Of a stretch of 64,000 nucleotides of DNA, positions 10,946 through 63,806 are shown piece by piece. Position 1 is the stretch's first letter; each line of letters starts with the position of its first letter. The DNA is from Octopus vulgaris. Taxonomy: Eukaryota. Location: the NCBI GenBank assembly GCA_951406725.2, contig OX597826.1:82956001-83020000 (forward strand), in the 5' to 3' direction. The translations under genes and the position numbers were made by a program. Below the pieces are notes generated by a model. It was given only the letters and a program-made list of their open reading frames with translations. It was not told the origin of the DNA and did not search any database.

Positions 10946-11099
10946 GTAACATTGAAAAATACCTTAGGAATGAGAACCCAGGTTCGAAATTTCCCCAAGA
11001 CACCTGAAGAAGGCTGGAGAGTATATCAGCCGAAACATTGAGTTAACAATAAACAAGTTGAGGACAAATATCCGTCGAATGTAAATAATGTAAATAATG
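10804..11099 (+). mobile_element. tRNA-headed SINE with internal (AAT)n and a hammerhead-like 3' part
   Basis: A box TGGTATAGTGG 10811-10821, B box GAGTTCGATTCC 10854-10865, (AAT)n spacer, hammerhead-like core, short tandem tail AATGTAAAT x2. Confidence 0.75.
10999..11044 (+). ncRNA. Minimal type I hammerhead-like motif, probably decayed
   Basis: ACAC-CTGAAGA-A-GGCTG..CAGCC-GAAAC-ATT-GAGT. Core and stem II are intact; stems III and I have mismatches. Confidence 0.6.
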
Positions 11100-11187: not shown

Positions 11188-11248
<61 letters not shown>

Positions 11249-11393
11249 AGTAGGTGAATGAATTATCCTATGTTTATCGTCAGCATGGAAAATTCGTTTA
11301 ACCGAAACCTGGGTAGCAAGGTTATCATTATCGCTTTGTTTACCATGTAGGCAATCATCGAAACTTTTGTTTGTCTTGTTGTCGAGAGAGGAT

Positions 11394-11487
11394 CCCTTTC
11401 TTTCCTGATGAGAAGATTGCATAATGCACCCTTTATTCCTTTGGAATGAAAATATGCTGTCTTCGAAACATGTGTCGAGAGTAAAGG
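11394..11487 (+). ncRNA. Type I hammerhead ribozyme with intact core
   Basis: TTTC-CTGATGA(11405-11411)-GAAGA..GCATA....TATGC..TCTTC-GAAAC(11465-11469)-ATGT-GTC^GAGA. Stem II is GAAGA/TCTTC plus GCATA/TATGC. Stem III is the palindrome ACATGT. Predicted cut after 11476. Confidence 0.85.
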
Positions 11488-11526
11488 AATTTTGTTAACA
11501 TCTTCGTTCGACTCCATTCTTTCATT

Positions 11527-11582
<56 letters not shown>

Positions 11583-11586
<4 letters not shown>

Positions 11587-11919
11587 CGCATATTTGCCAT
11601 TTGAATATGGCTAACCCCTAAGGGTGGATGCTACTGTAGTTTGTAGCCCCAGGAAGATATCTCCTCCAGCTGGCTATAGACACACTATATGTGTCCTCTC
11701 AGTATTTGTGAAGGGAAGTCATCCTCCCCGTCTTCAACTCATGATACACACGGACTCGAGTTCAAGCGTGTGACAATCATGGTTGTAGACGAGAAGTCAG
11801 CTCCCTTCACAAATACATATACTTTATCCAGTGTCGATTGACACTGATATTGAAAAAGTGAAATCAAACAATGATAAATCTCAGAGCGAGTTATAAACAG
11901 TAGCGGTAACACATCGTGA

Positions 11920-11926
<7 letters not shown>
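11583..11926. mobile_element. Structured non-coding insert between (TA)n tracts
   Basis: Terminal direct repeat GTGACGCATAT (11583, 11916); long hairpin 11702-11816 closed by a perfect 15-bp inverted repeat. Confidence 0.55.
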
Positions 11927-47374: not shown

Positions 47375-49310
47375 TCGTTTCAAGTGCTCCTACAATCACT
47401 GGTACAGTAACCGTCCTGCGATGTCACATTTTTTCGATTTCAATCAGAAAATCTTTATATTTTCTGAGCTTATGAAATTCTTTTGCTGAAATATTATGAT
47501 CACAGGGTATGCTTATGTCAATCGATAAAGAGTTTATTGTTTTGGTCTTTCACAACAATATCTGATTTATTAGCTTTGACGGTCCGCTCTGTACATACAG
47601 GAAAGTCCCAAAGAATCGATATAGTTTCTCCTTCAGTTACAGCCTCGGGATGATGCTTATAGTCAGCAATTTTTATTTTATAATGCCGACATATCCAGTG
47701 TAGATATTGGCCAGCTCTGTCATGTCTGAATTTATTCTCTACTGCTGCTAAAACCTTACACCCAGAGATTAGGTGGTCCACTGTTTCAATTTCATCGTTG
47801 CAGTATCGGCACTTTGGGTCTGCTCCATTCTTCGTCCCGTTGGCTTGATAGTTCTGGATCATTAAGCTTTGATCTTGGGCAGCCAAGATAAAGCGTTCGC
47901 TCTCAGCCAATTGTTCAAACGCTTTTTGCTTTACCATTGACTTCACCTTCTCTGCAACAACAGTTGCTGCACTTACATCATGCTGTTCAATCTGGATATT
48001 ATGCATGGACTCGTTAATAGAACTTTTGCGCTCCTTCATGACAGAATGAAGCTTCTTATGTCTCTCGTTGTTTTCAACGAGTTTTTGCATCCAGTCTTTA
48101 GATGTTTCAAAATATTTCGCCTTTCCAATTCTGGTGGTTTTGCATTTTATTGCAAAGCATTAGCTTACAGATTTTCCTGTAAATCTTAATTCGCTCATAT
48201 TCCAGTTCAATACATTGGAACTATAGATAACAACTGGAACTGCTAAAGAATTTATAGCTAACACCTTGCTACGTGCATTTAAGTCGGATTTGGGGACGGT
48301 TCGATCTCTCCTGTAACATTCCGTTCTGATCTTCTCTTACCTGTTTGCATGTTGAATGCCAGATCCCTCATTTATTTCGAGGTATTTCTAAGTTTTTTCC
48401 TGCTCCAGTTGTTTTATGATTGTGTCAACATATAACACCACTGAATGTGAGGTCTTCAATTTCAAAGACCAAATTCCATCCCGATGTCACCACTGACTGC
48501 TTTCGCAGGCAATAAACCTTCAAGCTCATTATCGCCTTTGCCATAGAGTTCTAAGTCATCCATATAAAATAGATGACTTATTCTCTTTCTTGTGGCCAAT
48601 TCTATACCCATACCTTCAGGAAGTTTGAAATCACAGGAGATATTTTGAAGATATCCAGCGATTTCAAGATCCATGAATGCGGTATGCTGTCAAAGACCAT
48701 CTTATAATGAATCCTTGCAGGAACTGAGATTTCTGCGTTTGTTATGACAGTTCTCAAAGACCAAGTGATTGATCAAGAGTTGGTTTTTGCATCTACATGA
48801 ACCTCGTCGGCACACCCTTTGTTTAGTGGCAAAAAATGGTTCTATTCCATAAATTTGTATGATTCCTCCACGAGGATGGATGTTAAAATGTTATACGTGG
48901 CAGATAGACATGTTATGGGCCGATAGTTTTGGAGAAATTTGGTTTCATTATTCTTTGGAAGTAGATGAGTAATTCCTGTTGCTAAACAATCAGGATTTCC
49001 CTTAAGATCTCTCATAATTTCATTGAATAACTGAACTAACTTTTCGCCTGCGCACGGGAACGATGCGAACCAGAAATCTGGCACTCTATCATAACCAGTG
49101 GATTTCTACTTATGAGCCTTTGTGAGTGTCATCCTTAGGTCTGCTTTTGTGATGTCTTCCCATGCCAGTTCTGGTAAATTTTGGTTGGATCCGTCTGTGC
49201 GTCGAATGCAGTCTAAATTTTTATTACATGTCTTCATCACTCCAAACAATTTTCCAAAAGTTTTCAGCTTCTTCCCTGGGAGGTTTCTCTTCTCAAATCT
49301 TCGTATTCTT
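47375..49310 (-). mobile_element. R4/Dong-clade non-LTR retrotransposon relic (RT, CCHC, RLE)
   Basis: NYRPITCLSATYNILTSI; ISHLFYMDDLELY; ILAAQDQSL; CRYCNDEIETVDHLISGC..RHD; ILWDFPV.T..TVKANKSDIVV. Confidence 0.9.
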
Positions 49311-49840: not shown

Positions 49841-51132
49841 CGAAGGACGTTCAATAAGTAATGTCTCTGACCCACTTGCTGATGTTTGATCTAGCTGAAG
49901 TTTTGCATGTGCAATCATTGATATCTCTATAGAGTAAGTGGCAAATTACAGCACTGAATTAATTGTGGTTTCTGATTTACAGGTGTTTGAACCGAGTCAA
50001 GTGTTAAATGGAGCCTGTTGAGTGTCGAGCAGTGATCCGGTTTTTGTATTTGAAAGGACGCACACCACGGGAGACTTTTGATGAAATGAAAATAACTTAT
50101 GGTGATGATGCCCCATCATATGACCTTGTAAAACGCTGGCATCGTGAATTCAAATATGGTCGGAACTCTGTGGAAACAGCTCCCAGATCTGGTCGCCATC
50201 CTACTGCCATTGATGAGGCATCTGTCCGTCAAGTTGAGGCTGCCATTTTGGAAGATCGACGCATAACTATTCGCCAAATAGCCCATGAGGTCAAGATTAG
50301 TACCGGGTCTGTGGAGACTATCATTCATGACCATTTGCATATGCAAAAGGTATCTGCCAGATGGATTCCCAGGTTGCTCACATCTTTCCAGAAGCAAGAA
50401 CGCGTCGAGTGCTCGAGGATGAATTTGGAGATGTGCCAAGAAGATTAGTCAAACTTTTTCAAAAGACTGATTACAAAGGATGAGACCTGGGTCCTTCACC
50501 ATGATCCAGAGACCAAAGCCCAGTCAATGCAGTGGAAGCACCATGACTCACCTCCTCCAAAGAAGGCAAGGGTGCAGCCCTCCGCTGGCAAGGTCATGCT
50601 CACAGTCTTCTGGGACCAGGACGGAATAGTGATGACAGATTTCCTGGCAAAGGGTACCACAATTACAGGAGCCTATCATGCTTCACTTTTGAGGAAATTA
50701 AGAGAAGTTATCAAAATCAAGAGGCGGGGCAAGATCAGCAAAGGCATCCTCCTCCTGCAGGACAACGCTCCGGTCCACAACTCGCTTGTCGCCAGATCAG
50801 AAGCACAGACGTATGGCTATGAACTCCTCCCCCATCCCCCTACTTTCCTAACCTTGCACCCTCTGATTTTCACCTCTTCCCAGACATGAAGTTGTTTTTG
50901 AAAAGAAAGCGTTTCCCAGATGATGCAGCCTTGATTTCTGAAGTCGCGTTCAGGTTGGAGGACCAAGCTGGGGTCTTCTATAAAAACGGTCTCCAGAGCT
51001 GCATCAAACAATGGGAGAAATACGTAACTCTGGGTGGTTCCTATGTAGAAAAAGACTAATAACTGTGCCAAGTTTCATTGCTCTACTGCTATGGGAAGTG
51101 GGTCAGGGGCATTACTTATTGAACGCCCCTCG
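49841..51132 (+). mobile_element. Full-length mariner transposon (irritans-like)
   Basis: TA-flanked TIRs CGAAGGACGTTCAATAAGTAATGTCTCTGACCC / GGGTCAGGGGCATTACTTATTGAACGCCCCTCG, length 1292 bp. Confidence 0.95.
50008..51059 (+). pseudogene. mariner DD34D transposase, nearly intact
   Basis: RAVIRFL..; WIPRLL; ITKDETWV; GKVMLTVFWD; LLQDNAPVH; HPP motif. One TAG at 50446 and a frameshift near 50840. Confidence 0.93.
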
Positions 51133-58750: not shown

Positions 58751-59356
58751 TACTGGATATACATATATGTGTGTGTGTGTGTGTATGTATGTGTGCATAT
58801 ATATACATACACACGTGCATATATACATACGTATATGCGTGTGTGTGTCTATGTATATGTATAGATATTGTTTATTTTTAATTGGTTGATATTACGAAGT
58901 GATCCATGGACCAAGATTTACACTCATTGGCAATTCTTAAAAGGGATCAGGGCCACTACATGAAACTCTCTGCGCTTGAATCATTTATTCAATTTGTAAC
59001 TTCTGTCGATTAAATAATATATAAAATTTGTATATTCGCACACACACACACATAGACACAACCATCATTAACTGCGTGGGTTCCTTCTCATGCTCAAGAA
59101 TTTCAATTTCCCTCTGTTGAAAGAAAGAGATATCAGCAGAAAGAAACACCAGTAGCTTGCTTTATAATTGGATTACAACGACTGAAGAATGTGACCCGCA
59201 GAAGAATATGAAAGGCGCCTAGTTAAACAGTACCCCGACCGCTTCCTACTTAGATTCATTAGACCGCGTGAACTGCCACCCCGACGAACGTACCACCATT
59301 ACATACATATTTATGTGTGTATTTATATGTGTATATATGTATTTCTGTATGTATGC

Positions 59357-60500: not shown

Positions 60501-60891
60501 TAATACTACAAAATTAGAGAATGGAGAAACATACTTAAATCAATAAAACATCAACTATCCGATGATACCCAATCAATATTTTAATACACCATTACATATG
60601 AGTAGAGGCATTATACAAAAAGAGATATACATTAATAGTAAAAAGATAAAGAGATATAAGTAAAAAATTTCAAATATAATATGCAATTAATCAAAACTGA
60701 CAGCTGTTTCGGCAGTGAGGGCAGTCATACCTCATTTAACCTATAAGCCATAAAGGCAGGTATAAATGAGGCATTAACAAGGATGCCCCACGGCCTCTTC
60801 AGAGAATTAAATTAAATTTGTTATAATTGTGAAAAATATTATATAATCATATACATATAAATATAAAAATATAAAAATGTAAAATATAAAA
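60501..60891. repeat. Left arm of 391-bp inverted repeat
   Basis: Reverse complement of 63416-63806; only 2 mismatches found by eye. Confidence 0.95.
60685..60812 (-). ncRNA. Type I hammerhead ribozyme with extended stem II (sense to the GIY-YIG ORF)
   Basis: Reverse-complement copy of 63495-63622; predicted cut 3' of C at 60699 on the minus strand. Confidence 0.8.
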
Positions 60892-62905: not shown

Positions 62906-63415
62906 CTATTTGAATCTAGAAAAGGTGAACGGTAGCCTATGAATGCAAAAGAAGTTTTTTTCATTAATGTTGTTAATAATTTGCCGACCCGCTTTAATAA
63001 TGAAAAAAATTTCATTAATACATAGAGAGCATTTTTTATTTTTTCCATTATACACAGGTGCTGAAGTTAGTATTTTCCAGTTTAATCTAAAATCCAAGTT
63101 CTTACTTTTAAGTTCCCAAATATATGCACTAAGCCCTGTAGAGTACATTCTATTTTTATTTCTAAAAGTATATCTGTGATAATTCAATCTTTGTTTTATG
63201 CTATTCATAGTTGCCCCGATATACACCCTACTACTCAATTGTGTATCTACAGTGCATTGGTAAACTACCTCCTTCCTGAGGCATTGATTACCAAATACAC
63301 ATTTATTTTTGTTTCTGCAATTACAAAGATTAACAGAATGAGGAAATCTAAGATTGGTCTCCACCCCTATACTACCATTCACATTATAAGTGTTACAATT
63401 GTTATCATCATCCAA
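62906..63415 (-). CDS. GIY-YIG endonuclease domain of a Penelope-like element; open frame, probably 5'-truncated
   Basis: CNCR..C.FGNQCL..EVVYQC...YIGAT..IKQRLNYH...TGLSAYIWELK...W.IL...Y....CSLCINE..I...IINN..E...CIHR. The called start is a TTG exactly at the inverted-repeat junction. Confidence 0.85.
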   Translation of the reverse strand: MDDDNNCNTYNVNGSIGVETNLRFPHSVNLCNCRNKNKCVFGNQCLRKEVVYQCTVDTQLSSRVYIGATMNSIKQRLNYHRYTFRNKNRMYSTGLSAYIWELKSKNLDFRLNWKILTSAPVYNGKNKKCSLCINEIFFIIKAGRQIINNINEKNFFCIHRLPFTFSRFK

Positions 63416-63801
63416 TTTTATATTTTACATCTTTATATTTTTATATTTATATGTATATGATTATATAATATTTTTCACAATTATAACAAATTTAATTTAA
63501 TTCTCTGAAGAGGCCGTGGGGCATCCTTGTTAATGCCTCATTTATACCTGCCTTTATGGCTTATAGGTTAAATGAGGTATGACTGCCCTCACTGCCGAAA
63601 CAGCTGTCAGTTTTGATTAATTGCATATTATATTTGAAATTTTTTACTTATATCTCTTTATCTTTTTACTATTAATGTATATCTCTTTTTGTATAATGCC
63701 TCTACTCATATGTAATGGTGTATTAAAGTATTGATTGGGTATCATCGGATAGTTGATGTTTTATTGATTTAAGTATGTTTCTCCATTCTCTAATTTTGTA
63801 G

Positions 63802-63806
<5 letters not shown>
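63416..63806. repeat. Right arm of 391-bp inverted repeat
   Basis: Reverse complement of 60501-60891. Confidence 0.95.
63495..63622 (+). ncRNA. Type I hammerhead ribozyme with extended stem II
   Basis: CT-CTGAAGA(63505-63511)-GGCCGTGGGGCA..ATGCCTCATTTA..TAAATGAGGTAT..TGCCCTCACTGCC-GAAAC(63597-63601)-AGCT-GTC^AG; palindromic ACAGCTGT stem III. Confidence 0.8.

What the first reader, a model, noticed from the sequence alone, without database searches (positions are those of the whole stretch)
11246..11528. One CUGAUGA core shared by two alternative hammerhead folds
Seen: the core at 11405-11411 forms a clean type I hammerhead with the downstream GAAAC-ATGT-GTC (cut after 11476). It can also pair with an upstream half. 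GCAATCATC (11351-11359) pairs 8/9 with GAAGATTGC (11412-11420), GAAAC is at 11360 and GTC at 11381-11383, and GAGAGAGG closes stem I on CTTTCTTTC (type II topology; stem III only 2 bp). Both sites share TGTCGAGAG. A third GAAAC-CTGG-GTA half-site is at 11304. The unit lies between two long (TA)n tracts. Inference: this could be a bistable ribozyme, or two cuts could release a 93-nt RNA (11384-11476) that could circularise like a miniature retrozyme.
Basis: partly seen in the sequence, partly recalled or inferred. Interest (0 to 1): 0.8.

Follow-up and report, generated by a model that had tools for sequence, protein, structure and literature searches.

The report
Penelope-type hammerhead with decayed upstream duplicate
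This stretch holds one well-formed hammerhead (self-cutting RNA) motif of the kind left by Penelope-like jumping genes in TA repeats; the proposed second ribozyme is likely a decayed partial copy that is predicted not to cut and may instead dampen the real one.

Summary
All coordinates and pairings are right, and the upstream half-site is not chance (0 of 20,000 shuffles). The bistable two-cut reading is poorly supported. Contigs of 8 runs show a high-copy family. The downstream type I hammerhead is conserved, with a self-complementary stem III strand (dimer type). The upstream GAAAC is rare among copies: position 11364 reads T in 96-99% of depth in the four deepest runs. A second subfamily has lost GAAA (6 of 7 loose-end consensuses). 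The third half-site lies in a separate segment (11246-11319) that continues differently elsewhere; the unit is a composite. Against plain decay: the upstream stem II partner still pairs in both subfamilies, and the upstream arm is predicted to sequester the core, so a brake is possible. A type III fold that needs no upstream GAAAC could still cut at 11383 (about 7%). Cleavage and expression are untested. The scan has noted this class (Penelope-type hammerheads in TA tracts) on other pieces of this genome, though not this family.

The parts
11189..11245 (.). Left (TA)n tract
11246..11319 (+). Segment B: separate recurring repeat segment; strong hairpin 11253-11303 followed by GAAAC-CTGG-GTA (self-complementary strand), no CUGAnGA core in front; looks like a core-less hammerhead homologue
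   Evidence: loose ends behind 11319 in 4 of 4 runs; aligns to 11406-11477, 6 of 2000 shuffles; + strand z -3.3, - strand z -0.4
11325..11528 (+). Segment A: 5'-truncated piece of a high-copy hammerhead-bearing repeat; the family continues upstream of 11325 with other sequence
   Evidence: loose ends before 11325 in X1, X2, X7, X19, X3
11326..11370 (+). Likely decayed copy of the ribozyme's 3' half (offset 105): stem II partner 11348-11359 and GAAA 11360-11363; C11364 is rare in the family
   Evidence: (28 of 45 identical, ungapped)
11372..11392 (+). Second upstream arm with TGTCGAGAG; predicted to pair over the core (anti-core hairpin with 11398-11421); also the alternative substrate strand of a possible type III fold
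11395..11404 (+). Stem I 5' strand
11405..11411 (+). Catalytic core CUGAUGA
   Evidence: no variant row at 4% or more
11412..11464 (+). Long stem II (11 of 12 pairs, G10.1-C11.1, one U.U mismatch) with inner hairpin
   Evidence: variants
11465..11476 (+). GAAAC, palindromic stem III strand, GUC; predicted cut after 11476
   Evidence: self-duplex -6.0 kcal/mol; 11472 G>A majority gives a perfect palindrome
11477..11487 (+). Stem I 3' strand (5 bp, bulged U, 5 bp)
11488..11528 (+). 3' tail of the element ending at the TA tract
   Evidence: covered to 11528 in 4 of 4 runs
11530..11582 (.). Right (TA)n tract

Best explanation
11325-11528 is a truncated copy of a high-copy repeat with one conserved type I hammerhead motif, likely the 3' end of a Penelope-like element or a passenger of one, predicted to cut only after 11476 and likely only as a dimer. 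The palindromic stem III strands of two copies would cross-pair to complete the fold (inferred from the anatomy and from PMC4209133, PMC7229834). The upstream region is likely one or two decayed partial repeats of the ribozyme's 3' half. It lacks a usable stem III and often GAAA, so it is predicted not to cut; its predicted effect is a competing hairpin over the core that would slow the real site. Segment B was joined in front during insertion (inferred). Shown: sequence, family variants, composite nature. Predicted: folds. Untested: cleavage, transcription, parent element.
For: Family: 1980 contigs laid in X1 alone. Core without a variant row at 4% or more in 4 of 4 runs. Stem III loop 11472 G>A is the majority in 4 of 4 runs (X1 160659/264033) and makes the strand perfectly palindromic. 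Four common stem II variants (11417 T>C, 11418 T>G, 11457 C>T, 11458 T>A) and stem I 11479 G>A each keep or improve the downstream pair when taken singly. Upstream 11364 C>T is the majority in 8 of 8 runs: 56862/58872 (X1), 5929/6148 (X2), 146101/148578 (X7), 279233/282939 (X3), 14/22.9 (X9). Loose-end consensus before 11372 lacks GAAA in 6 of the 7 runs that list it. One contig (X19 record 4) has GAAA lost and stem I broken at 11388. 11326-11370 aligns ungapped to 11431-11475 (70 of 5000 shuffles in the wide test; 1 of 3000 in a narrowed test). Two opposite-strand joints within A and depth rising towards the 3' end fit the truncated and inverted insertions and (TA)n bias described for PLEs (PMC8557442).
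Against: No ORF or parent element could be seen; at most 30 upstream letters were visible. The duplication signal is weak outside the parts that pairing would force (linker only 1213 of 5000 shuffles; second partial copy 892 of 3000). The upstream stem II partner pairs 9 of 11 in this copy and 10 of 11 in the second subfamily, with the same A.A mismatch, which is more conservation than plain decay predicts. In the main subfamily GAAA and GUC survive (11383 C in 75-80% of depth in X1, X2, X7, X19, X3). Some downstream variants break pairs (11453 T>C 103369/142352, 11481 G>A 110915/589802 in X1). Variants are unlinked site frequencies from contigs at least 80% alike, and depth is no copy number. 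The downstream fold itself is a minor species as a monomer (P 7e-4).
Confidence: 0.62

Rival explanations
1. The upstream arm is a selected off-switch. It is transcribed first, captures the 5' arms and the CUGAUGA core, and keeps long transcripts uncut, while 5'-truncated or refolded RNA can cut at 11476.
For: The predicted best fold of 11325-11425 pairs 11373-11392 over the core; duplex -19.8 kcal/mol, 8 of 1000 shuffles (27 of 1000 with family letters). Upstream stem II complementarity is kept in two subfamilies while GAAA is lost. Such blocking is described for plant retrozymes and viroids, and said not to be the rule in animal retrozymes (PMC7229834 discussion).
Against: Core occlusion itself is not unusual against shuffles (103 and 193 of 1000). 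A duplicated 3' half pairs this way without selection. 11388 G>T and 11392 variants weaken the inner hairpin. No two-sided compensatory change is shown. The conserved helix (11348-11359) is not the one the energy model uses (P about 0.00).
Confidence: 0.2
2. One core with two substrate strands. The shared TGTCGAGAG spans exactly positions 16.3 to 1.5, so a type III fold (upstream GUC, stem I hairpin, downstream stem II and GAAAC, 3-bp stem III) could cut after 11383; with the dimer cut at 11476 this would release a 93-nt RNA that could be ligated into a circle.
For: All pairs are legal and no upstream GAAAC is needed. The site stays NUH-compliant in both subfamilies (GUC or GUU; 11382 T>C under 5%). 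The 9-mer is unlikely by chance (15 of 20,000).
Against: 5.7 kcal/mol above the type I fold; predicted share 1e-5 to 1e-7 even after the downstream cut. 11383 C>T reaches 20-25% in five runs and 63-100% in X9, X11, X15, against 10-16% at 11476. 11388 G>T (11-25%) breaks stem I. The predicted best fold of the 93-nt circle keeps stems I and II but pairs the core.
Confidence: 0.07
3. One reading: upstream stem II partner, GAAAC 11360 and GUC 11383 form a second active hammerhead.
For: All parts are present and in order in this copy; beyond chance; GAAA and the stem II partner persist in the main subfamily.
Against: About 11 kcal/mol above the type I fold; share at most 5e-8 with no competitor present; stem III of 2 pairs (A-U plus U.G in the family) round a 16-nt loop that cannot dimerise; GAAA lost in the second subfamily.
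Confidence: 0.03
4. A fossil: neither site cuts in this copy, and it is not transcribed.
For: Single core at the locus with no tandem partner in the window; PLE minimal hammerheads were inactive as monomers and weak as dimers in vitro (PMC4209133).
Against: The motif is intact and family variants favour the fold, so the family's source copies were probably active; trans-dimers are possible in a high-copy family (inference).
Confidence: 0.08

Closest known systems
Type I hammerheads with short palindromic helix III in metazoan Penelope-like elements (Cervera and De la Pena 2014, PMC4209133; parts 1-2 of 4 read)
   Same: Intact core, G10.1-C11.1 pair, long helix II, 5-bp proximal helix I, palindromic 15.2-16.2/loop 3, mostly solo truncated copies, pairs on opposite strands.
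   Different: No extra nucleotide between A9 and G10.1; helix II longer (12 bp plus inner hairpin); an upstream arm complementary to both 5' arms; no ORF linked here.
Hydra-clade and other (TA)n-targeting PLEs, e.g. Hydra-1_Obim (Craig et al. 2021, PMC8557442; passages, section 11, supplement search)
   Same: Insertion in (TA)n, canonical hammerhead, 5' truncation, inverted neighbours.
   Different: Four motifs of this unit gave 0 hits in the one supplementary file held; clade cannot be assigned without the ORF.
Metazoan non-LTR retrozymes (PMC7229834, parts 2-4 of 6 read; 10.64898/2026.07.22.740005, parts 1-2 of 5 read)
   Same: Non-coding, AT-rich, type I hammerhead, probable PLE link.
   Different: No tandem array at this locus; proposed 93-nt unit is below the 150-450 nt described in PMC7229834 (the preprint reports consensus lengths from 51 bp); circles need two hammerheads there.
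Drosophila virilis Penelope hammerhead with alternative helix I (PMC4209133)
   Same: One core with two possible helix I partners.
   Different: There the choice is made by splicing and the cut site is one.
Blocked hammerheads of viroids and plant LTR retrozymes (PMC7229834 discussion; PMC3376415, two passages)
   Same: A complementary stretch competes with the active fold.
   Different: Here only predicted, and possibly a by-product of duplication.

Membership tests
Type I hammerhead, dimer type (downstream fold) | CUGAnGA, GAAA and NUH in type I order | tested here: met
Type I hammerhead, dimer type (downstream fold) | Stems I and II formable and favoured | tested here: met
   (centroid of 11391-11492 has both, z -2.35); variants
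Type I hammerhead, dimer type (downstream fold) | Short palindromic helix III | tested here: met
   -6.0 kcal/mol self-duplex; 11472 A majority
Type I hammerhead, dimer type (downstream fold) | Site-specific self-cleavage | not testable with these tools
   needs in vitro assay
Minimal PLE hammerhead (PMC4209133 consensus) | [quoted passage not shown] | tested here: not met
   (best stem II with 0 extra letters)
   in this copy
   (+1.1 kcal/mol); 15.2 is U in the family
   kept in the main subfamily, lost in 6 of 7 loose-end consensuses of the second
   predicted share 1e-11 to 5e-8; nearest-neighbour model only
Penelope-like element 3' end / pLTR | Linked RT and GIY-YIG ORF | not testable with these tools
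   no genome held; collection scans empty
Penelope-like element 3' end / pLTR | Insertion in (TA)n | tested here: met
   this copy
Penelope-like element 3' end / pLTR | 5' truncation and inverted neighbours | tested here: inconclusive
   2 of 13 joints are opposite-strand, one contig each; depth rises 3'-wards but is no copy number
Non-LTR retrozyme | Tandem units each with a full hammerhead | tested here: inconclusive
   not at this locus; no go-back joint among 13, but the unit may be longer than the stretch laid
Non-LTR retrozyme | Abundant circular RNA | not testable with these tools
   only contigs of runs guessed to be RNA

The most novel reading that the evidence does not exclude
A natural hammerhead whose single enzyme strand cuts two substrate strands in cis, one upstream in type III form and one downstream in type I form, excising itself as a 93-nt RNA that closes into a circle: a retrozyme made with one core instead of two.
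Probability: 0.07. Interest if true: 0.75.

Novelty: new member of a known kind. Interest (0 to 1): 0.3.

Why it matters
As it stands it is one more Penelope-type hammerhead family in a genome full of them. Two things could lift it. If the upstream arm is a selected brake, an animal PLE hammerhead would be controlled by self-pairing as viroid and plant retrozyme hammerheads are, which bears on how these ribozymes avoid cutting at the wrong time. If one core cuts both ends, circles could arise without tandem hammerheads. Both are settled by one cheap transcription assay.

Tried and rejected
No genome is held for the window, so no copy alignment or covariation model could be built. BLAST of the unit within the window: no second copy. 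Pattern scans: 0 in metagenome contigs, viral contigs (24), genome contigs (50). No RNA holder listed; X9, X11, X15 are only guessed RNA, so their cover is not taken as expression. No 11476-to-11384 joint among 13 joints in 4 contig sets and no joints: contigs show presence, not absence, so this is not counted. Rfam: nothing relevant. Segment B as the inverted sense end of the same RNA: not supported, as its hairpin is stable only on the + strand, B minus does not pair with A better than shuffles (360 of 500), and the two outer ends are not significantly alike (841 of 3000). A tail of A as a third module: 1071 of 3000. A motif shared by the loose ends of A and B: chance level in the window. 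Non-circular permutation (PMC10085705, abstract and outline only): no such order needed here; not examined further. Literature searches for a shared-core or bistable natural hammerhead (listings only; also 13, 40, 43, 44, 53) showed none by title or abstract start; subscription journals are largely missing. Look-ups of earlier findings by sequence, relatives, near place and words were empty.

Full report
Observation. Every coordinate and pairing in the finding is correct. The window is a microsatellite-rich, AT-rich animal-like sequence; earlier scan notes call the genome octopus-like, which I did not test. A relaxed scan of both strands finds one complete hammerhead in 64 kb, the downstream fold at 11405. 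The upstream half is beyond chance: both of its features together occurred in 0 of 20,000 shuffles.

The unit is a composite. With no genome held I used sequencing-run contigs: 24 runs were listed and I laid 8 of them, four on 11246-11528 and four on 11322-11430. In 4 of 4 runs, contigs matching 11246-11319 (segment B) go on with other letters after 11319. Contigs matching from 11325 (segment A) come in with other letters in X1, X2, X7, X19 and X3. Of 13 joints, 10 link a point in B (11268-11319) to a point in A (11377-11500) on the same strand, 2 join A to inverted A, 1 skips within A; each rests on one contig with sides of 22-51 letters. So B-to-A joins recur with varying inner breakpoints. 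The third half-site belongs to B. B folds strongly only on the + strand, aligns to the A hammerhead (6 of 2000 shuffles) and has a fully self-complementary stem III strand (-9.8 kcal/mol) (such a half-site alone arises in 820 of 20,000 shuffles), but has no core before it. I read it as a core-less hammerhead homologue; its link to A stays unexplained.

Downstream hammerhead. The core shows no variant row at 4% or more. The loop III variant 11472 G>A is the majority in 4 of 4 runs and makes the strand a perfect palindrome; this copy's strand self-pairs at -6.0 kcal/mol. Variants 11417 T>C, 11418 T>G, 11457 C>T, 11458 T>A and 11479 G>A singly keep or improve downstream pairs; 11453 T>C, 11460 T>C and 11481 G>A break one (40 rows shown, 6 not). 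These are unlinked frequencies from contigs at least 80% alike. The anatomy is that of dimer-dependent type I hammerheads of animal repeats and PLEs (PMC4209133; PMC7229834), except for the missing extra nucleotide after A9.

Upstream half. The family's GAAAT would still allow A-U plus U.G, round a 16-nt U-rich loop that cannot dimerise (+1.1 kcal/mol). In the main subfamily 11351-11359 has no variant row and GUC is kept in 75-80% of depth in five runs, so this subfamily alone does not exclude the fold. A second subfamily shows as loose ends before 11372 in 7 runs (2, 5, 15, 18, 25, 1 and 25 contigs); the consensus lacks GAAA in 6. One contig (X19 record 4; linked to its loose end by length, 51+106=157, and depth 5.7) carries the stem II 5' strand unchanged, an upstream partner pairing 10 of 11 by my count, no GAAA, GUU at the site and a stem I mismatch at 11388. 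Pairing outlives the catalytic box.

Energies. In transcripts ending at 11425 or 11450 the type II share is at most 5e-8. The best fold is a hairpin that pairs 11373-11392 over the core (8 of 1000 shuffles; 27 of 1000 with family letters; core occlusion itself 103 and 193 of 1000). The model ignores tertiary contacts, dimers and proteins.

Origin. 11326-11370 aligns without gaps to 11431-11475 (28 of 45; 70 of 5000 shuffles in the wide test; 1 of 3000 when narrowed), and TGTCGAGAG repeats at a different offset (93 against 105). The linker alone is not significant (1213 of 5000). By eye, the family's letters about 105 nt before the core resemble a decayed core (loose ends before 11325); not tested.

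Mechanism. Most likely the parent RNA is cut after 11476 when two copies cross-pair their stem III strands, and PLE machinery inserts 5'-truncated 3' ends into (TA)n, often beside another fragment (known PLE behaviour, PMC8557442; inferred for this family, no ORF seen). The upstream arm would compete with the active fold. Whether that is selected (0.20) or a by-product (within 0.62) is open. PMC7229834 states that such blocking is typical of viroids and plant retrozymes and not of most animal retrozyme circles, so a selected brake would be a modest variant.

Most novel reading. The shared 9-mer covers exactly the substrate strand (16.3 to 1.5), so the downstream enzyme strand could also cut at 11383 in type III form without the upstream GAAAC. 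It is predicted at 1e-5 to 1e-7 even after the first cut, and the site is less conserved than 11476, so I give it 0.07. Searches (listings only) showed no natural one-core, two-cut hammerhead; the nearest case read is the splice-dependent helix I of D. virilis Penelope.

Verdict. Observation confirmed; interpretation partly supported; new member of a known kind; interest 0.30. Papers seen: PMC7229834 parts 2-4 of 6; PMC4209133 parts 1-2 of 4; PMC8557442 passages, section 11 and a supplement search; 10.64898/2026.07.22.740005 parts 1-2 of 5; PMC3376415 two passages; PMC10085705 abstract and outline. Hammerhead numbering and the NUH rule are partly from my own knowledge.

Noticed in passing
window 60501-60891 (-) and 63416-63806 (+): 391-nt inverted repeat, 99.5% identical, each arm with a hammerhead-like motif (CTGAAGA, very long stem II, GAAAC-AGCT-GTC palindrome; fold z -5.5), flanking an A-rich stretch; TA tracts outside. 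Looks like a young PLE remnant with an inverted pLTR whose two ends stop at different points. It did not pass my stem I filter.
   Followed up: partly
window 62906-63424 (-): 172-aa frame that looks by eye like a Penelope GIY-YIG endonuclease end; Pfam 0, NCBIfam 0, weak PDB match to endonuclease II at E 0.33.
   Followed up: partly
window 11246-11319: Segment B: core-less hammerhead-like half with fixed left end at TA, repeatedly joined to fragments of A in other contigs; one CTGACGA on the - strand in the hairpin loop. Unexplained.
   Followed up: partly
window 11004-11036: CTGAAGA, one extra A, 5-bp stem, GAAAC, with no conventional NUH/stem I downstream; may be one of the rearranged hammerheads noted elsewhere in this genome.
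   Followed up: no
window 59182-59215: CTGAAGA ... GAAA with a 4-bp stem II; fails the full scan.
   Followed up: no
window 11583-11926: A further insert between TA tracts with the 11-mer GTGACGCATAT at both ends (11583 and 11916).
   Followed up: no
window 50008-50889 (+): Broken mariner-type transposase (Pfam HTH_48, E 4.5e-8 for the first piece).
   Followed up: partly
window 47518-48159 (-): Non-LTR retrotransposon-like fragment (zf-RVT, E 1.7e-4, below cut-off).
   Followed up: partly
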